A stretch of 35,320 nucleotides of DNA from a virus (Duplodnaviria > Heunggongvirae > Uroviricota > Caudoviricetes): IMG/VR virus record IMGVR_UViG_2606217174_000009. One strand, 5' to 3'. The translations under genes and the position numbers were made by a program. Below, one piece after another: positions 4,539-15,759 of this stretch. How positions within the stretch are numbered: the first letter of the stretch is position 1; the number at the start of each line of letters is the position of its first letter. The notes beneath the pieces were generated by a model, which was given only the letters and a program-made list of their open reading frames with translations, was not told where the DNA came from and did not search any database.

Positions 4539-5138
4539 TATCGCGTCCTCAACAATGAATTTTGTGATGCGGTGCCTGGTGCCTCCAGGTGACGTTAACC
4601 AGTTAACAATTAACGCCGGATACAGAGAATCCACCCATAACACTGTTTTTGGTTTTAACTGTTCCGCGTGCGCTCAGCCGCATTCACCACATCACAAAAT
4701 TCACTTTAAAAAGGGCGGCAGAGCAGTCACGGAGTAAAACTGATACCGCCAAACGTCACCAGAAAATTGATAACAGAGGGCGTTACAGCGGGGTTGTCAC
4801 TTAAGCGTATGGTCAACCTGACAACCCGGTGTCCTCAACGGGGGAAGGAATACCCCCGCCATACTTACCGCCGCGCCATTTCGCGGATTGCCACAACCGG
4901 AAGCGCACGGTCGACGAAAATTTAACGACAGGCTATCTATGAACCAGCTACCTCGCCGTGCGCTTTCGCGTTATGGTCTGACTTTTCAGGGAAATATCCT
5001 TTCAGTAAACTGTCAATGCCGGATGCTCACCCGTGTCCGGCGCACGCACTCCACCTCACCCGTGGAGAACTCCTTAATTACTAACCTTAGCTTTGTTGAT
5101 TAGCTACTAACGCGGGTATGTAATCATTCTGGCAATGC

Positions 5139-9319: not shown

Positions 9320-12300
9320 ATGAGTGATGATAGCTATAAATTTCAAAAGTTAACGCCGTTCAGCGATGTTGAGCTGGGTGTATATAAAAATGCGATAGAT
9401 TTTGTTTTTGCCAATAACGATCTAAAAAATGTTGCGATATCAGGGCAATATAGCGCAGGAAAAAGTAGTCTTATCGAATCCTATAAGAAAAGTCATTCAA
9501 ATATAAAGTTTGTTCATATCTCACTTGCTCATTTCAGATCGATTGAGGAAGCTGAAACTAATGAACCAAGTAAAGATATAAATGAAACCGCGTTAGAAGG
9601 TAAAGTTCTTAACCAGTTAATTCACCAAATTAATGCTGATGATATTCCCCAGACACATTTTAAAGTAAAGAAAAAAATAAAAACTAACAACATTGTGATA
9701 AACACCATCTTTACGGTGTTATTTATCGCTATGATACTACATATCACGCTATTTAATAAGTGGGAAAAGTTTGTTTCACTTTTATCTGAAGGTAATATAA
9801 AGACACTACTTACATTATCAACTAAATACGATACGCTTTTAATTAGTGGGTTTATATGTACTATCCTATCTTGTATTTTCATTTACAAGTTAATAAAAAC
9901 TCAAAAGAATCGTAATGTTCTTAAGAAAATAAATTTACAGGGTAATGAAATAGAGATTTTTGAAGAAAGTAACGAGTCTTATTTCGATAGATATTTAAAT
10001 GAAGTATTGTACCTTTTCGAGAACGTTGATGCTGATGCCATTGTTTTTGAAGACATGGACCGTTTTAATAGTAATAACATCTTTGAACGTCTTCATGAGG
10101 TTAACAGACTGGTTAATATTCAACGGGACACAGCAGGGCACAAGAAATCGACGTTACGTTTTATTTACTTGCTTCGTGATGATATCTTCATTTCGAAGGA
10201 TAGAACCAAATTCTTTGATTATATCATTCCAGTTATTCCTGTTGTTGATAGTTCTAACTCTTACGATCAGTTTATCACACATTTTGATGGTGGTGGTATT
10301 CTCAAGTTGTTCAATGAAAGATTTCTACAAGGGATGTCTTTATATATTGATGATATGAGAATATTGAAGAATATTTATAACGAATTTCAAATTTATTATA
10401 ACAAATTAAACACGACAGAACTTGACTGTAATAAAATGTTGGCCATTATTGCCTATAAGAATATTTTCCCAAGAGATTTTAGTGAGTTGCAACTTAATCA
10501 AGGTATGGTTTATACCATATTTAGTGAAAAAGACAACCTTATTATTGAAGAAATAAAGAAAATAGAAAAAGATATTAGAGATAGAAAAAAAGAGATTGAG
10601 GCAATCAATGATGAAATACTCAACTCTAGTCAGGAGGTTGATGCTATATACGATAAGGAATTATCTAGATATAATAATCATCCTCACTATAATCAGGCTG
10701 AGAAAGCTGATATAGCAAAGAGAAGGGCGGCTAGAAAAGAAAGTGTTGAAAATAAATTTAATGGTAAAATAGAAGAAATTAATGAGCTTATATCAAGATC
10801 AAGAGAAAGTTTGGTTGATTCTAGAAACAAAAGACTTAAAGAAGTAATAACTAGAGAAAACATTGATGAAATATTTAAACTCACCTATACCAATGAAATT
10901 GGAGAGGAAAGAGACTTTAATGAAATAAAAAGCAGTGAGTATTTTGACTTGCTTAAATACCTTATTCGTGATGGTTATATTGATGAAACCTATACCGACT
11001 ATATGACCTATTTTTATGAAAATAGCCTGAGTCGAATTGATAAGATGTTTTTACGCAGCATTACCGATCAAAAAGGCAAAGAGTTCACTTATCAACTCAA
11101 GAACCCCAAACTGGTCGTTGCCCGCCTTCGAGAAGTGGATTTTGAACAGGAAGAGGCGCTTAATTTTGATTTATTAGCTTATCTGCTTCAAACGCCAGCC
11201 CAGGTAAACTTAATAAAACGTTTATTCAAACAACTAAGAAAAGATAGAAGAGTTGAGTTTATTCGTGGTTACTTTGAAACTGAGAGGGCTCAGCCTGTCT
11301 TCATTAATCGATTAAATACACAGTGGCCTGAGTTTTTTTCTTATGCGCTGACAGAGAGTGAATTTTCTGCTGATTGGGTTAAACTCTACTCTATAGGCAC
11401 GTTTTATTATTCTGCCAATGACGCCATCGAGGCCATTAATATTGATGATTGTCTGACTGATTACATCTCTGATTCGGCAGGTTATTTAGCAATATCAGAA
11501 CCGAAGGTTGACAAATTAATTAGTGGTTTTAAGTTGCTTAACGTCTCTTTTGTCAGTATTAAATTTGAAAACGCAAATAAAGTACTCTTTGATGCGGTTT
11601 ACCAGCATTCACTTTATGATATTAATTTTTCCAACCTGACCTTAATGCTGAGTAAGGTTTACACGCTTAATAGTGAAGATGATATTCGCCATAAGAACTA
11701 TACACTAGTGATGTCACAACCTGATTCTCCCTTGGCTAGTTATGTTAATAACCATATTAGGGACTATCTGGATATGGTTTTATCTAGTTGTGATGGTTCA
11801 ATCGTGGATGATGAATCCATTGTTTTATCCGTTCTTAATAATGAGGGAATATCTGATGAACAAAAAGGCCAGTATATAAACGCTTTGCAAACTTTCGTGA
11901 CATCTCTGAGTGAGGTTGAGAGCGAATCTTTATGGTCATCTTTGTTGGATAAAGATAGAGCAGTGTGCTCTGAGGAAAATATTGTCTCTTATTTTGAACA
12001 TGTTGATGGACTGGATGACTCACTTATCGAATTTATCAATAGAACTGATGTAGACCTGAATTTTCAAAATATTAATATTGATAACGAGCTTAAAGGTAAA
12101 TTATTTAAATCGATTGTTATCTGTAATGATTTATCAAATGATAAATATGAAAAATTAATTTGCTCACTAAATATTATTTGTAAAACATCCTTTAGCGCTA
12201 GTAATATCGCGAGTGATAAGTTCAAAATATTAGTGGATAAAAATATTATTCGTATGAATGTTGCGCCACTTAATTTCATACGAGATAACTATTCAGAGCA

Positions 12301-12691
12301 ACTTTCCTATTATATTCATAAGAATATCAGGGCATACGTTGAATTAATGACGATTGATAACTTTATTTTGGATGAGGCTATATCAATACTTTCTTGGAAA
12401 GTTGATGATGATTTGAAAGTTAAGCTACTCGAGTTTGTTAAAACTCCGTTGGCTATTTATAGTAAGAATTACTCTCAGGTCGTTAATGACTATATTTTAG
12501 AAAATAATTTTAAACCAGATGAACTTCTAATCTTGACGTCATCTTATAAAACTTGGGGAACCTCTACTCAGTCGCTCATCTTGAGTCGAGCAATACAGGA
12601 TATATCAGCATTGATAGCAAGTCCTAATGATGTTTCTGAACCGTTACTAAAAAAACCTGTTTGTCGCAGAGGGACTGAATATGCAGAATAA
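9320..12691 (+). CDS. KAP-family P-loop NTPase (1123 aa) with transmembrane insert
   Basis: Walker A GQYSAGKS (aa 42-49); two hydrophobic helices (about aa 124-146 and 172-192); Walker B-like IVFEDMDR (aa 241-248); long C-terminal region with a charged coiled-coil-like segment; strongly AT-rich. Confidence 0.8.
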   Translation: MSDDSYKFQKLTPFSDVELGVYKNAIDFVFANNDLKNVAISGQYSAGKSSLIESYKKSHSNIKFVHISLAHFRSIEEAETNEPSKDINETALEGKVLNQLIHQINADDIPQTHFKVKKKIKTNNIVINTIFTVLFIAMILHITLFNKWEKFVSLLSEGNIKTLLTLSTKYDTLLISGFICTILSCIFIYKLIKTQKNRNVLKKINLQGNEIEIFEESNESYFDRYLNEVLYLFENVDADAIVFEDMDRFNSNNIFERLHEVNRLVNIQRDTAGHKKSTLRFIYLLRDDIFISKDRTKFFDYIIPVIPVVDSSNSYDQFITHFDGGGILKLFNERFLQGMSLYIDDMRILKNIYNEFQIYYNKLNTTELDCNKMLAIIAYKNIFPRDFSELQLNQGMVYTIFSEKDNLIIEEIKKIEKDIRDRKKEIEAINDEILNSSQEVDAIYDKELSRYNNHPHYNQAEKADIAKRRAARKESVENKFNGKIEEINELISRSRESLVDSRNKRLKEVITRENIDEIFKLTYTNEIGEERDFNEIKSSEYFDLLKYLIRDGYIDETYTDYMTYFYENSLSRIDKMFLRSITDQKGKEFTYQLKNPKLVVARLREVDFEQEEALNFDLLAYLLQTPAQVNLIKRLFKQLRKDRRVEFIRGYFETERAQPVFINRLNTQWPEFFSYALTESEFSADWVKLYSIGTFYYSANDAIEAINIDDCLTDYISDSAGYLAISEPKVDKLISGFKLLNVSFVSIKFENANKVLFDAVYQHSLYDINFSNLTLMLSKVYTLNSEDDIRHKNYTLVMSQPDSPLASYVNNHIRDYLDMVLSSCDGSIVDDESIVLSVLNNEGISDEQKGQYINALQTFVTSLSEVESESLWSSLLDKDRAVCSEENIVSYFEHVDGLDDSLIEFINRTDVDLNFQNINIDNELKGKLFKSIVICNDLSNDKYEKLICSLNIICKTSFSASNIASDKFKILVDKNIIRMNVAPLNFIRDNYSEQLSYYIHKNIRAYVELMTIDNFILDEAISILSWKVDDDLKVKLLEFVKTPLAIYSKNYSQVVNDYILENNFKPDELLILTSSYKTWGTSTQSLILSRAIQDISALIASPNDVSEPLLKKPVCRRGTEYAE

Positions 12692-12953
12692 AATAGCACT
12701 GCTAATCGCTTTGTTGCCGGGTAAGGATTTGAGTAAGACGACTTGCAAAGAGTATCTTGATCTGCTTGGTTTATCGGAGTTCAGTAAAATTTTGGGGCGA
12801 GGCAAACCTAAAATTGAAGTTGATTCAACTAATCAAAGTTTATTAACAGCATTAAGAGATAACCACTTCTTCTCTGATTTTGAGGTGGATAATGAAAATC
12901 CCACTTATTATAAAATAACAAGGCGGCGCTCTATGTTTGGCTCAGATACATAG
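12681..12953 (+). CDS. Small partner protein (90 aa) overlapping the KAP NTPase stop
   Basis: ATG at 12681 overlaps the KAP stop by 11 nt (translational coupling); same AT-rich composition; no recognisable domain. Confidence 0.55.
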   Translation: MQNKIALLIALLPGKDLSKTTCKEYLDLLGLSEFSKILGRGKPKIEVDSTNQSLLTALRDNHFFSDFEVDNENPTYYKITRRRSMFGSDT

Positions 12954-13003: not shown

Positions 13004-13601
13004 CGCTGAAACTTACGCAGATAATCTGACTTTTTCCCAGTTGACGAGTACACCTAGGTGTTCGTGAAGCCCTCAGTGTGTTGGGACAGATGCGAGCGTC
13101 CGCTCTTCGCTCAAAGCGGCCTAGAAGGTTAGCTTGCGTCGGACTTGGCGTATTTAAAGAAGTGCTGGTGGTGACTGGTTGTTGTGTTCCATTTCTACAG
13201 AACAAAATCACAGAAACTATACCCAATAGTTGTATTGAATCACTGACGAGACAGCCTCATATTTATCAGGACTGGTGTACGTCCAATACAGGAGGTTGTG
13301 GTGCTGGTTCTCAAATGTGCGCTGGCTATTGCTGCTGTAATGGCAATTTATTGCCTTGCTGTTGTTCTTATGGATCGCCTTTCTGACTGATTTCATATTG
13401 GCGAGGTGACGGGAGTTAAGTAGAATGGCTGCGGGTGCTTGAGGCTATCTGTCTCAGGCATGAACACCAACGGCAGATAGAGAAAAGCCCCAGTTAACAT
13501 TACGCGTCCTGCAAGACGCTTAACATTAATCTGAGGCTCAATCTATGAACGGCAAATCTAGGTTAGCCTCTTACGTGCCGAAAGGCAAGGAGAAGCAGGC
13601 T

Positions 13602-13757
13602 ATGAAGCAGCAAAAGGCGATGTTAATCGCCCTGATCGTCATCTGTTTAACCGTCATAGTGACGGCACTGGTAACGAGGAAAGACCTCTGCGAGGTACGA
13701 ATCCGAACCGGCCAGACGGAGGTCGCTGTCTTCACAGTCTACGAACCTGAGGAGTAA
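13602..13757 (+). CDS. hok: Hok/Gef-family type I toxin
   Basis: 51 aa MKQQKAMLIALIVICLTVIVTALVTRKDLCEVRIRTGQTEVAVFTVYEPEE matches the Hok/Gef family; AAGGAG SD; in-frame upstream ATG at 13545 gives a 70-aa mok-like extension. Confidence 0.85.
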   Translation: MKQQKAMLIALIVICLTVIVTALVTRKDLCEVRIRTGQTEVAVFTVYEPEE

Positions 13758-13825
13758 GAGACCAGGCGGGGGAGAAATCTCCAGCCACCTCTGATGTGTC
13801 AGGCATCCTCAACGCACCCGCACTT

Positions 13826-13846
13826 AACCCGCTTCGGCGGGTTTTT
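13826..13846 (+). terminator. Rho-independent terminator after hok
   Basis: CCCGC-TTCG-GCGGG hairpin plus T-run. Confidence 0.6.
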
Positions 13847-13922
13847 GCATTAGTCTGGTTGACAAAAACAGGAAAATGCGAAAATATAAGGTTTACGAAT
13901 TCTAAAAAAAGCGAAACTTGAA

Positions 13923-14573
13923 ATGAATGAAAATCAGTTAGCTCCTTGTTGGGAATTTCAACCTTATCTTGCTGAAAGCAATGTTCGCCAGTTGTTGGCG
14001 GAGATCGCTAACGTACTTGAGCAGTTGTACTATCATAAGCACGTATTAGACAGCAACTGGTCTGAAGGTGTAAGGGCTTATGATTGGGTCAGAAACCATC
14101 TTATTCAAAATGAAGGCGCAATTCCTGGTCTTAAGATGATTTCCAAGGGGTTGGACTATGTAGTTGCTTTAAATAAAGTTCCGCTACAATTTACCAAAGA
14201 TTGCATTAATAACCCCAAAAAGAAACATCGCCTGCGTCGAAATAAAGTAGAGCATGAGCAGCTTTCATTGTTTGGTGATGTTGAGGCTGAGCAAGATATT
14301 ACATGGCGAGTCATAGCGGAGCCATTTTTATCCGAAGAGGGAGATGGTGAATTAGAGTCCACACTGCCTCGTTGGGAGGTGGCTCTTGTTGGGTTTAATA
14401 TCTATGGTGCTCAGATTAGTATGGTTTCTCATCAATCTACAGCATCAATGCCACTTATGCCCCTTGACGGTAACACACTCCCTGGCGAAGCGGAGATTAA
14501 TAAGGTGTCTCTTCGTCGGCGTACGAAGGATAAAATTTTGGATGTGAGCAGTAATGGAACATCAGGTGAATAA
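13923..14573 (+). CDS. Hypothetical protein (216 aa) coupled to the downstream XRE/ImmA gene
   Basis: AT-rich ORF; 3' end overlaps the downstream gene by 20 nt; TTGACA at 13859-13864 with an AT-rich -10-like hexamer about 18 bp downstream; no recognisable domain. Confidence 0.6.
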   Translation: MNENQLAPCWEFQPYLAESNVRQLLAEIANVLEQLYYHKHVLDSNWSEGVRAYDWVRNHLIQNEGAIPGLKMISKGLDYVVALNKVPLQFTKDCINNPKKKHRLRRNKVEHEQLSLFGDVEAEQDITWRVIAEPFLSEEGDGELESTLPRWEVALVGFNIYGAQISMVSHQSTASMPLMPLDGNTLPGEAEINKVSLRRRTKDKILDVSSNGTSGE

Positions 14574-15657
14574 CTTCACTGAGTATCGAGGCGATAAGCT
14601 CAAACTAGCAAGAATGGCTGTTGGGCTTTCATGTGAAGAGTTGGCCGAAAAAATTGGCAAAACAAAACAATTCGTTAGCAAATTGGAGAAGGGATTTAGG
14701 CCATCAGAGCAATGCCTGGAGTTAATAGCCTCAGCTCTTATGATTAAGCCCGATTTTCTATTTACTGAGCGAAAATATGCTCTGGAAAGCGATGTTTGCC
14801 ATTTTCGGAGTAAGAAGTCCAGGACTCAAACGCTGACTAATAGTGTCTTGGCCAGGGCTGAGATTCTTAATATTATAATTTCTGCTGTTGAAGGTGAAAT
14901 CGAATTCCCTGATGTCAACATACCAGAGCACCCAGGAACTGAATTACTTACCCCGAATGATATTGAGCGAGTGGCAGAAGATTGTCGCCGTGCATGGAAT
15001 CTAGGTCTTGGCCCTATATCATCAATGGTGAAATTGGCGGAGAGTTTGGGGGTAATCGTTGCGCATGTTACGGGAGTCGATGATCGTGTTGATGCATTCA
15101 CTGTTCACAATAACAGGCCTGTTATTATCAGGAACAATGTAAAAAAAAGCATATGTAGATTTCGCTCTGATTTAGGTCATGAGTTAGGGCATTTAGTAAT
15201 GCATGAGGGCATAACTACTGGTGATAAACTTACGGAATCACAAGCTGATCACTTTTCTAGCGCCTTATTGGTTCCTAGGCTATCTTTCATTAAAGAATTT
15301 CCACGAATACGAGGTAAGCAATTCGATTGGAGTGCTCTGGTTGAATTTAAGCTTAGATGGAAAATTAGCCTTAAAATGTGTATTTATCGAGCCAGTGCAT
15401 TAGGACTATTGACCCAGGAACAGGCAAGAACTGGCTATATGCATCTTAATTCTAGAGGGTACACGAGAGTTGAACCAGGTGATGAACTTTTGCGCCACGA
15501 AGAACCAAGTATGCTGTCCGAAGCGATTGACATGCTGGATGATGCAACTTGGTTAAGAATTCTTATGAAAACTGGCTTGAGTCAAGATTTAATTCGTGAG
15601 TTGTTCTCCATCAATCGACCTATTACAAATCCAAGAAATATTTTTCAGATTGTTTGA
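14554..15657 (+). CDS. Fused HTH-XRE / ImmA-IrrE family zinc metallopeptidase
   Basis: N-terminal HTH (LSCEELAEKIGKTKQFVSKLEKG); central HEXXH motif (HELGHLVMHE) typical of ImmA/IrrE (COG2856) peptidases. Confidence 0.8.
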   Translation: MEHQVNNFTEYRGDKLKLARMAVGLSCEELAEKIGKTKQFVSKLEKGFRPSEQCLELIASALMIKPDFLFTERKYALESDVCHFRSKKSRTQTLTNSVLARAEILNIIISAVEGEIEFPDVNIPEHPGTELLTPNDIERVAEDCRRAWNLGLGPISSMVKLAESLGVIVAHVTGVDDRVDAFTVHNNRPVIIRNNVKKSICRFRSDLGHELGHLVMHEGITTGDKLTESQADHFSSALLVPRLSFIKEFPRIRGKQFDWSALVEFKLRWKISLKMCIYRASALGLLTQEQARTGYMHLNSRGYTRVEPGDELLRHEEPSMLSEAIDMLDDATWLRILMKTGLSQDLIRELFSINRPITNPRNIFQIV

Positions 15658-15660
15658 GCA

Positions 15661-15687
15661 TACCCGCTACGGCGGGTTTTGTTTTTT
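15661..15687 (+). terminator. Rho-independent terminator after the XRE/ImmA gene
   Basis: CCCGC-TACG-GCGGG hairpin followed by TTTTGTTTTTT. Confidence 0.55.
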
Positions 15688-15759
15688 CCGGGCTTTTTGG
15701 TTTACAATCCGCACGCCAGCCTGAACAACTGGCACCTGCTGCGCCAGCAGAGAAAAACG

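What the first reader, a model, noticed from the sequence alone, without database searches (positions are those of the whole stretch)
13859..15687. Unknown 216-aa protein translationally coupled to a fused HTH-XRE/ImmA-IrrE metallopeptidase
Seen: a 216-aa ORF with no recognisable domain overlaps by 20 nt a 367-aa protein with an N-terminal HTH and a HEXXH motif (HELGHLVMHE). The pair is AT-rich, has a TTGACA -35 hexamer upstream and a hairpin terminator downstream. Established: XRE/ImmA (COG2856) proteins act as protease-controlled switches in anti-repression and in toxin-antitoxin or abortive-infection modules. Inference: the upstream protein is a candidate effector or toxin held in check by the XRE/ImmA protein.
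Basis: partly seen in the sequence, partly recalled or inferred. Interest (0 to 1): 0.7.

Follow-up and report, generated by a model that had tools for sequence, protein, structure and literature searches.

The report
Prophage RosmerTA toxin-antitoxin defence cassette
The two genes are a RosmerTA toxin-antitoxin / anti-phage cassette, a kind of system already catalogued, sitting as an add-on gene block in an E. coli lambdoid prophage; its toxin carries a textbook beta-sliding-clamp-binding motif, which suggests that it kills by blocking DNA replication.

Summary
A 216-aa ORF (13923-14573) overlaps by 20 nt a 367-aa HTH + M78/ImmA-IrrE protein (14554-15657). The pair has its own conserved promoter-like site and its own terminator.

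The pair is not an unknown. PADLOC calls the genes RmrT (E 3.6e-24) and RmrA (E 7e-107), so this is a RosmerTA system. It is a discrete 1.87-kb block between hok/sok and the DUF968/RusA genes of a lambdoid prophage, and 237 of 5426 complete E. coli genomes carry it.

Distant toxin relatives (20-40% identity) always sit directly upstream of an HTH-M78 gene (7 of 7 loci checked). HExxH is kept in 79 of 80 RmrA relatives.

Two new leads, both inferred:
- The toxin has QLSLF, the canonical beta-clamp-binding motif, conserved in position across the family. The RipA family, whose S. pneumoniae member targets DnaN, has Q[IL]xLEL at the equivalent place in 33 of 35 members.
- RmrA has a nearly invariant [F/Y]-R dipeptide at about the position where CapP cleaves CapH (F82/R83).

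Likely mechanism: a clamp-poisoning toxin held in check by a self-cleaving repressor-protease antitoxin.

The parts
13845..15712 (+). Whole RosmerTA cassette: a promoter, two genes and a terminator, inserted as an add-on block (moron) between the hokD terminator and the conserved downstream prophage genes.
   Evidence: blastn against a near-identical prophage that lacks the pair (L002) puts the breakpoints at 13844/13845 and 15712/15713. L002 holds 324 nt of AT-rich non-coding DNA in this slot.
13857..13887 (+). Promoter-like region and possible operator: TTGACA at 13859-13864, then TGcGAAAAT / AAATAT.
   Evidence: GGTTGACA-N13-AAAATGCGAAAATAT is invariant in the E. coli, Xenorhabdus and Proteus cassettes. 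The strict sigma-70 scan did not call it. A 27-nt direct repeat lies at 13857-13883 and 13890-13916.
13923..14573 (+). rmrT, 216 aa. Putative toxin of PADLOC family PDLC03929 / phrog_5786.
   Evidence: The family has 34 clusters at 50% identity among 1.8 billion proteins. AF2 model: pLDDT 79, pTM 0.71, an alpha/beta core and a disordered tail from about residue 172. No transmembrane segment.
14259..14273 (+). Codons for Q113-L-S-L-F117, an exact match to the beta-clamp-binding motif consensus QL[S/D]LF.
   Evidence: Read directly from the sequence. Invariant in 13 of 13 close homologues and conserved in position across the family. An exact match arises in 2.6e-4 of shuffles. Q113 and L116 are among the 13 best conserved columns. 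It lies in a local pLDDT dip.
14554..15657 (+). rmrA, 367 aa. Antitoxin/repressor that fuses an XRE HTH to an M78 (ImmA/IrrE) Zn-peptidase.
   Evidence: PADLOC RmrA PDLC03943 at E 7e-107. Pfam. 29% identical (E 3e-35) to the experimentally verified E. coli OLC-716 RmrA.
14599..14760 (+). HTH_3 DNA-binding domain, residues 16-69.
   Evidence: Pfam E 8e-9. Matches the 434 repressor and SinR in the PDB. Matches the PADLOC capH model.
14803..14808 (+). F84-R85, a nearly invariant aromatic-Arg dipeptide in the linker after the HTH. Candidate (self-)cleavage site.
   Evidence: Aromatic in 77 of 80 and Arg in 78 of 80 RmrA relatives. CapP cleaves CapH between F82 and R83 (paper 10.64898/2026.05.16.725639). 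capH model positions 8-68 align to RmrA residues 13-72.
15079..15396 (+). Peptidase_M78 domain, residues 176-281. HELGH is at 15178-15192 and the third Zn-ligand candidate E228 at 15235-15237.
   Evidence: Pfam. HExxH in 79 of 80, E228 in 80 of 80 and F234 in 80 of 80 relatives.
15662..15687 (+). Intrinsic-terminator-like hairpin (ACCCGC-TACG-GCGGGT) with a T tract, ending the cassette.
   Evidence: The stem is nearly identical to that of the hokD terminator at 13826-13843.

Best explanation
The pair is a RosmerTA-type toxin-antitoxin / anti-phage module carried as a self-contained add-on block in the late-regulatory ('nin') region of an E. coli lambdoid prophage.

Shown by homology and context: rmrT (216 aa) and rmrA (367 aa; XRE HTH plus M78 Zn-peptidase) form one tightly coupled operon with its own conserved promoter and terminator.

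Inferred working model, with my probability for each step:
1. In the lysogen, RmrA represses the operon through its HTH and keeps RmrT harmless, probably together with ClpXP. This follows what is reported for Rosmer toxins in S. pneumoniae, E. coli E101 and Pectobacteriaceae (about 0.8 that RmrT is a toxin neutralised by RmrA).
2. Free RmrT binds the hydrophobic cleft of the beta sliding clamp (DnaN) through its exposed QLSLF motif. This displaces polymerases and stalls replication of the host, and of phages that use the host replisome (about 0.5).
3. The trigger is loss or self-cleavage of RmrA. By analogy with CapP/CapH and IrrE/DdrO, the M78 domain would be activated by an infection or DNA-damage signal such as ssDNA and would cut at the invariant F84|R85 behind the HTH (about 0.35).
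For: Membership:
- PADLOC RmrT at E 3.6e-24 and RmrA at E 7e-107.
- RmrA is 29% identical (E 3e-35) to the verified OLC-716 RmrA.

Functional linkage:
- 7 of 7 distant RmrT relatives have an HTH+M78 gene immediately downstream, in prophage, integrative-element and Tn7-like contexts.
- 63 of 80 RmrA loci across phyla have an abutting upstream ORF of 150-300 aa.

Cassette nature: presence/absence polymorphism with exact breakpoints, and a conserved promoter block.

Protease integrity: HExxH in 79 of 80 and E228 in 80 of 80 relatives.

Clamp hypothesis:
- An exact QLSLF, found in 2.6e-4 of shuffles.
- It is invariant in close homologues while the two residues before it vary.
- The published consensus is met by 22 of 37 family members at the same column.
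- It is met by 21 of 63 upstream toxin candidates, against 4.4 +/- 1.95 in shuffles, 8% of control ORFs and 0 of 52 downstream ORFs.
- The RipA (spr1630) family meets it in 33 of 35 members, inside a predicted disordered loop. RipA has been shown genetically and by two-hybrid to target the DnaN pocket (PMC12795458).
- Both AF2 models have the same order of secondary-structure elements.

ClpXP link.

Cleavage-site analogy.
Against: - Nothing here tests toxicity, neutralisation, defence or clamp binding.
- About 40% of family members deviate from the published clamp-motif consensus. The motif is short and degenerate: 9% of shuffles of this protein meet the loose consensus.
- The enrichment counts homologous proteins, so it measures conservation, not independent events.
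- Profile-profile comparison with the RipA family and with the verified OLC-716 RmrT is not significant, at E 0.11 and 0.13. Common ancestry of the toxins is therefore unproven.
- In the AF2 model part of the motif is helical (residues 108-115) and may pack on the core.
- Another Rosmer toxin (phage Kita) depolarises membranes, so Rosmer toxins do not all share one mechanism.
- The F-R dipeptide could be structural.
Confidence: 0.8

Rival explanations
1. It is a RosmerTA module, but the toxin acts by another mechanism: an unrecognised enzyme (for example a nuclease) or another protein target. In that case QLSLF is a structural element.
For: - Nearly invariant polar residues D43, E110 and R129 could form an active site.
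- The RipA-family model gives repeated weak hits to EcoRV-type endonucleases, E about 0.03 and TM about 0.25.
- Rosmer toxins are heterogeneous.
- Part of the motif is modelled as helix.
Against: - No significant fold or sequence match to any enzyme.
- I could not find a PD-(D/E)XK-like signature in the alignment.
- A conserved glutamine in a low-confidence loop is typical of a linear binding motif.
- The RipA precedent points to DnaN.
Confidence: 0.3
2. It is a plain addiction or stabilisation TA module of the prophage with no anti-phage role.
For: Vmi480/Vmi470 and RipAB were characterised as TA systems without any phage phenotype. rmrA is essential in Pectobacteriaceae under laboratory conditions.
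Against: - Two Rosmer systems protect against phages.
- The cassette sits beside a Tmn-type defence gene (PADLOC E 6e-67), in a variable cargo slot.
- The two roles are not mutually exclusive.
Confidence: 0.2
3. It is an ImmR/ImmA-like or CapH/CapP-like regulatory switch that controls prophage induction or a neighbouring operon. The 216-aa protein would then be an unrelated passenger.
For: RmrA matches the capP (E 1.9e-14) and capH (E 1e-5) models, and it shares the HTH plus M78 architecture.
Against: - The prophage has its own immunity region elsewhere.
- The cassette is absent from otherwise near-identical prophages.
- The upstream partner co-occurs in 7 of 7 distant loci in unrelated contexts.
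- Terminators flank the pair, so read-through control of neighbouring genes is unlikely.
Confidence: 0.04

Closest known systems
RosmerTA (RmrT/RmrA), verified system of E. coli OLC-716 (Millman et al. 2022)
   Same: - Two co-oriented genes.
- A toxin of about 200-240 aa with no Pfam domain.
- A 370-aa antitoxin with an N-terminal HTH and a Zn-peptidase; RmrA is 29% identical at E 3e-35.
- Both toxins have a clamp-motif-like sequence at 52-60% of their length: QLSLF here, QLKLDL in OLC-716.
   Different: The toxins show no detectable sequence similarity and belong to different PADLOC models, PDLC03929 against PDLC03935. The variant in this window has not been tested.
RipAB (Spr1630/Spr1629) of S. 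pneumoniae; NCBIfam NF052238 / NF052239
   Same: - Rosmer-type pair with the toxin gene first.
- The antitoxin is homologous (NF052239 at E 2e-44).
- The toxin model has the same order of secondary-structure elements, and a Q-phi-x-L-x-L motif at the equivalent loop.
- RipA targets the DnaN cleft and depends on ClpX.
   Different: RmrA scores 152 bits against a cut-off of 335. RmrT does not hit NF052238. hhalign between the toxin families gives E 0.11. The hosts are Firmicutes, and RipAB has a role in competence.
Vmi480/Vmi470 (Vibrio mimicus MGIVmi1) and E101_02645/02644 (E. coli E101 prophage)
   Same: - A toxin-first pair: a 198-aa toxin of unknown fold plus a 362-aa HTH + Zn-peptidase antitoxin. 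Toxicity and neutralisation were shown.
- The E101 pair makes clpP essential.
- Vibrio members of the window's toxin family exist (P0029, P0035).
   Different: I could not obtain these sequences, so membership of the same toxin family is untested. The accessions differ from those in this window (WP_032253520.1 / WP_032253521.1).
CapH/CapP regulators of CBASS, and IrrE(PprI)/DdrO and ImmA/ImmR
   Same: - An XRE HTH repressor plus an M78 metallopeptidase.
- CapP and IrrE are activated by ssDNA and cleave the repressor.
[quoted passage not shown]
   Different: Here the repressor and the protease are one polypeptide. The controlled gene is a toxin in the same operon. The protein has no detected GAF domain, and cleavage has not been shown.
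SocAB of Caulobacter crescentus
   Same: The toxin blocks replication by binding the beta-clamp cleft through a clamp-binding motif, and ClpXP keeps it in check.
   Different: There is no sequence relationship. SocA is a ClpXP adaptor, not an HTH-peptidase.

Membership tests
RosmerTA | Two adjacent co-oriented genes, RmrT and RmrA, in one operon | tested here: met
   20-nt overlap, one promoter-like site and one terminator. RefSeq annotates both genes.
RosmerTA | RmrA carries a Zn-peptidase (M78/ImmA-IrrE) domain with HExxH, usually with an N-terminal HTH | tested here: met
   Pfam PF06114 at E 5e-11 and PF01381 at E 8e-9. PADLOC RmrA at E 7e-107. HExxH in 79 of 80 relatives.
RosmerTA | The partner matches a catalogued RmrT family | tested here: met
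   PDLC03929 at E 3.6e-24, covering model positions 5-190 of 198. Distant family members hit the same model at E 1e-20 to 3e-72.
RosmerTA | RmrT is toxic alone and is neutralised by RmrA (rmrA cannot be deleted) | not testable with these tools
   Shown only for other pairs.
RosmerTA | Protects against phage infection | not testable with these tools
   Shown for the OLC-716 and phage Kita systems.
RipAB / spr1630-spr1629 (NCBIfam equivalogs) | Score above the curated cut-offs of NF052239 (antitoxin) and NF052238 (toxin) | tested here: not met
   RmrA scores 152 bits against a cut-off of 335, and RmrT has no hit. The control loci L061 and L082 pass both models.
Beta-clamp-binding proteins | A clamp-binding motif QL[S/D]LF or Q-phi-x-[LM]-(x)-[FL] in an accessible segment | tested here: met
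   QLSLF at residues 113-117, in a local pLDDT dip. Accessibility is only inferred.
Beta-clamp-binding proteins | Physical binding to the DnaN hydrophobic cleft | not testable with these tools
   A complex prediction with DnaN was not possible, because only single chains from this window can be submitted.
CapH/CapP or ImmR/ImmA regulatory pair | Separate repressor and protease genes that control an adjacent operon or element | tested here: not met
   The two are fused in one 367-aa protein. The cassette is bounded by terminators and is absent from sister prophages. One relative (L004) does have them split.
Membrane-depolarising RmrT (phage Kita type) | A predicted transmembrane segment in the toxin | tested here: not met
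   The maximum Kyte-Doolittle value over 19 residues is 0.98.

The most novel reading that the evidence does not exclude
Most Rosmer toxins, including this E. coli prophage RmrT and the experimentally verified OLC-716 RmrT, are beta-sliding-clamp poisons. They share one fold and present a canonical clamp-binding motif on a flexible loop. Their RmrA antitoxins are single-chain CapH-CapP equivalents that inactivate themselves by cutting at an invariant aromatic-Arg site when infection or DNA damage is sensed. No paper in the searched library reports either point.
Probability: 0.4. Interest if true: 0.6.

Novelty: already known. Interest (0 to 1): 0.38.

Why it matters
As a locus it is ordinary. 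It is one more RosmerTA cassette in a prophage cargo slot, identical to RefSeq proteins and detectable with the standard defence-system libraries.

Its value lies in mechanism. RosmerTA is widespread, yet how its 'unknown-function' toxins kill, and how the protease antitoxin is switched, is largely open. The exact QLSLF here, the same type of motif at the same place in the DnaN-targeting RipA family and in other RmrT families, and the CapH-like F|R site in RmrA together turn both questions into simple experiments: motif mutants, clamp binding, dnaN suppressors and cleavage assays.

If the model holds, it would unite RipAB, Vmi480/470, the E101 clpP-essentiality module and RosmerTA under one mechanism, namely clamp poisoning kept in check by ClpXP and a self-cleaving repressor-protease. 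It would also offer a natural clamp inhibitor scaffold.

Tried and rejected
- Pfam and NCBIfam gave nothing for the 216-aa protein.
- A profile search of PDB sequences gave one chance hit at E 0.21.
- BLASTP and hhalign against the verified OLC-716 RmrT showed no similarity.
- hhalign against the RipA family gave E 0.17 with 2 sequences and E 0.11 with 35. The single best local match was motif on motif, but it is not significant.
- Foldseek of the RipA-family model gave only weak EcoRV-like hits. I rejected these as evidence for a nuclease.
- Deposited phage genomes had no DNA or protein match. Plasmids had 5 hits, 2 of them E. coli.
- I tried to place Vmi480 in the family by tblastn of a Vibrio member (P0035) against plasmids. 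The pLP12 vector is not in the collection. The E101 and Spr1630 sequences themselves could not be retrieved.
The narrower alignment A3 worked.
- A membrane-toxin reading was rejected because there is no transmembrane segment.
- A prophage-immunity-switch reading was rejected on context.
Full report
OBSERVATION. The window holds a 216-aa ORF at 13923-14573 and a 367-aa ORF at 14554-15657 on the + strand, overlapping by 20 nt. The second protein has an HTH_3 domain (residues 16-69) and a Peptidase_M78 domain (176-281) with HELGH at 209-213. TTGACA lies at 13859-13864, and a hairpin with a T tract at 15662-15687. GC is 0.41-0.43, against about 0.5 in the flanks. The strict sigma-70 scan did not call the promoter. 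However, the block GGTTGACA-N13-AAAATGCGAAAATAT is invariant in the homologous cassettes of E. coli, Xenorhabdus and Proteus, while the flanking DNA is unrelated. That is a good footprint for a promoter or operator.

IDENTITY. Pfam and NCBIfam find nothing in the 216-aa protein. PADLOC identifies it as RmrT (PDLC03929, E 3.6e-24) and its partner as RmrA (PDLC03943, E 7e-107). PHROGs places them in phrog_5786 (unknown function) and phrog_2439.

RosmerTA was named by Millman et al. [quoted passage not shown] The rmrA deletion could not be transformed. Ernits et al. 2023 describe diverse RmrT toxins paired with the ImmA-type RmrA, usually carrying a small N-terminal HTH, with the toxin gene first in 58% of cases.

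The verified E. coli OLC-716 sequences are in Millman's supplement. Its RmrA is 29% identical to the one here over 300 residues (E 3e-35). Its RmrT is unrelated in sequence and belongs to another PADLOC model. This fits the known toxin diversity.

CONTEXT. The window is a lambdoid prophage. It contains an integrase, an exonuclease, DicF RNA, an immunity region, replication genes, DUF977, a Tmn/YobI NTPase, hok/sok, the pair, DUF968, RusA, a Q-like gene, a methyltransferase, three tRNAs and lysis genes.

The DNA is 100% identical to E. coli 14EC001, where the proteins are WP_032253520.1 ('hypothetical') and WP_032253521.1 ('HTH domain-containing'). At least 80% of the query is present in 237 of 5426 complete E. 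coli genomes.

Five genomes carry the same Tmn-hok backbone without the pair. Alignment with one of them (L002) places the breakpoints at 13844/13845, directly after the hokD terminator stem, and at 15712/15713. That genome has 324 nt of AT-rich filler in the slot. In other strains the gene upstream of hokD is an alpha/beta hydrolase or QueH. The pair is therefore a discrete, exchangeable 1.87-kb block with its own promoter and terminator. It was not found in deposited phage genomes.

CONSERVATION OF THE PAIR. An exhaustive HMMER search found only 34 clusters at 50% identity among 1.8 billion proteins, all about 190-225 aa. For seven members at 20-30% identity I fetched the loci. They come from Vibrio, Aeromonas, metagenomes, a Tn7-like element and integrase-linked islands. 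All seven have an HTH+Peptidase_M78 gene immediately downstream, with spacing from a 50-nt overlap to a 14-nt gap. One has the HTH and the protease as two ORFs. HExxH is present in every partner.

A scan of 185,579 species genomes with an RmrA alignment returned 80 loci across phyla. Of these, 63 have a 150-300-aa ORF abutting RmrA upstream, and 14 of those belong to this toxin family. In the 80 RmrA relatives HExxH is kept in 79, E228 in 80 and F234 in 80.

THE TOXIN. An AF2 model built from a 37-sequence alignment is confident (pLDDT 79, pTM 0.71). Its elements run helix 18-36, helix 51-62, three strands (70-92), short helices (101-115), a lower-confidence loop, three strands (127-171), then a disordered tail. 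Foldseek finds no similar solved or viral structure. There is no transmembrane segment, so it is unlike the membrane-depolarising phage Kita RmrT.

THE MOTIF. Residues 113-117 read QLSLF. This is the canonical bacterial beta-clamp-binding pentapeptide QL[S/D]LF (PMC9690074). The revised consensus is Q-phi-x-[L/M]-[F/L] or Q-phi-x-[L/M]-x-[F/L], and the Pol III motifs are QADMF and QVELEF.
- An exact match arises in 2.6e-4 of shuffles of this protein.
- It is invariant in all 13 homologues at 61-93% identity, although the two residues before it vary freely.
- Variants occupy the same column in distant members: QISIF, QLTLF, QLPLF, QLSLL, QLSLPL, QMSLEL.
- E110, Q113 and L116 are among the 13 best conserved columns in 25 non-redundant sequences.

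THE MOTIF IN OTHER ROSMER TOXINS. Among the 63 upstream toxin candidates, 21 meet the published consensus. Shuffles give 4.4 +/- 1.95 (maximum 10 in 500), other ORFs of the same loci give 8%, and downstream ORFs give 0 of 52. Nearly all motifs lie at 51-64% of the protein length, and they occur in 7 of 14 sequence clusters. A looser Q-x-x-[LM]-F count gives 31 of 63, with forms such as QADLF, QSDMF and QPGLF. The verified OLC-716 RmrT has QLKLDL at residue 143.

These counts are over homologous proteins. They show conservation of a positioned motif, not independent origins.

LINK TO A TESTED TOXIN. RmrA weakly matches NCBIfam 'spr1629 family repressor/antitoxin' (E 2e-44, below the cut-off). 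Three of the 80 loci pass that model. The genes upstream of the two I scanned (L061, L082) pass NF052238, 'spr1630 family ClpXP-sensitive toxin'.

Spr1630/Spr1629 is RipAB of S. pneumoniae, which its authors assign to the Rosmer family. RipA toxicity is suppressed by seven substitutions in the hydrophobic pocket of DnaN. RipA binds DnaN in two-hybrid and split-luciferase assays, and neutralisation needs ClpX (PMC12795458). That paper mentions no motif.

In 35 diverse RipA-family proteins, 33 carry Q[IL]xLEL or QLxLF at the equivalent position, with L145 and L147 invariant. In an AF2 model (pLDDT 68, pTM 0.72) this segment lies in a disordered loop at residues 136-154. The order of elements is the same as in the window's toxin: two helices, three strands, helix, motif loop, three strands.

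Profile-profile comparison of the two toxin families is not significant (E 0.11), although its single best local match is motif on motif. So this pair works like RipAB but is not a member of that equivalog family.

OTHER ROSMER-TYPE PAIRS. A Rosmer-type pair in E. coli E101 makes clpP essential. In three Pectobacteriaceae, rmrA is essential, and clpX is essential only where RosmerTA is present. SocB of Caulobacter is an unrelated, ClpXP-controlled toxin that binds the clamp through a clamp-binding motif.

THE ANTITOXIN. RmrA also matches the PADLOC capP (E 1.9e-14) and capH (E 1e-5) models. CapH is an HTH repressor that the M78 peptidase CapP cleaves when CapP binds ssDNA, and the cut is between F82 and R83. 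IrrE/PprI behaves similarly.

RmrA has CHFR at residues 82-85, about 14 residues after the HTH. Across 80 relatives, position 84 is aromatic in 77 and position 85 is Arg in 78, as conserved as the zinc ligands. capH model positions 8-68 align with RmrA 13-72, so F84-R85 falls within about 3 residues of the CapH site.

I infer that RmrA is a single-chain equivalent of CapH plus CapP, and that F84|R85 is a candidate self-cleavage site. This is analogy, not demonstration.

MECHANISM PROPOSED.
- Shown: one operon, a conserved pair, an intact metalloprotease motif, membership of RosmerTA by profile, and block-like mobility.
- Inferred from family knowledge: RmrT is toxic, and RmrA neutralises it and autoregulates the operon with help from ClpXP.
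- Inferred from sequence here: RmrT poisons the beta clamp through QLSLF, and RmrA is inactivated by signal-dependent cleavage at F84|R85.

The outcome would be replication arrest, acting as abortive infection or prophage-encoded exclusion.

VERDICT. The system is already known and is detected by the standard defence libraries, so the locus itself is of low novelty. The clamp-motif and cleavage-site leads are new as far as the searched literature shows. They are cheap to test and give the finding moderate interest.

Noticed in passing
window 9320-12953: The Tmn/YobI-type P-loop NTPase defence gene (PADLOC Tmn, E 6e-67) is split into a 1123-aa ORF and a 90-aa ORF by one extra A in an A-run at about 12649-12655. 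The otherwise 99.8% identical gene in NZ_CM132280 is intact at 1210 aa. This is either a pseudogene or a homopolymer sequencing error.
   Followed up: yes
window 13433-13843: A hok/sok type I toxin-antitoxin locus lies directly upstream: Rfam sok at 107 bits, a hokD-like ORF at 13545-13757, and a terminator at 13826-13843. Three defence or addiction elements (Tmn, hok/sok, RosmerTA) therefore sit side by side.
   Followed up: partly
window 13826-13843 and 15662-15677: The hokD terminator and the cassette's own terminator have almost the same stem (CCCGC-TTCG-GCGGG against CCCGC-TACG-GCGGG). The cassette starts exactly after the first stem. This may be a short-homology recombination site for swapping cargo blocks.
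   Followed up: partly
window 13857-13916: A 27-nt imperfect direct repeat, GGTTGACAAAAACAGGAAAATGCGAAA and GGTTTACGAATTCTAAAAAAAGCGAAA, spaced 33 nt apart, spans the promoter and leader. These could be operator half-sites for the RmrA HTH. The second copy is not conserved in Xenorhabdus or Proteus.
   Followed up: partly
L004 2910-4036: In one metagenomic relative the antitoxin is split into a 152-aa HTH protein, which still carries the CHFR site, and a 223-aa M78 protein. This resembles CapH/CapP, or it may be a frameshift.
   Followed up: no
L005 1-5705; L006-L008: The same toxin family with its RmrA travels as cargo of a Tn7-like element (TnsB-like transposase with a Mu-transposase C-terminal domain, TniB, TniQ). 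It also lies next to integrases, RecT/YqaJ and DNA polymerase A genes in Vibrio and other genomes.
   Followed up: no
model m28e8a50358c7 (RipA family): The top 11 Foldseek PDB hits are all EcoRV restriction endonuclease, with NhoI also listed, but at E 0.03-0.4 and TM about 0.25. This may be a faint echo of a PD-(D/E)XK-like alpha/beta core. It is not significant.
   Followed up: partly
window 4713-4764 (-), 19689-19938, 20043-20240: DicF sRNA, a cluster of three tRNAs and the sRNA STnc100 are present. ARAGORN calls the first tRNA Met(CAT), while RefSeq annotates the homologue as tRNA-Ile. All are typical cargo of Qin/Rac-like prophages.
   Followed up: no
RmrT residues 172-216 (window 14436-14570): The disordered C-terminal tail keeps a conserved L-P-x3-E-I ... 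R-R pattern across the family. It could be a degron, an RmrA docking site or a cleavage site.
   Followed up: no
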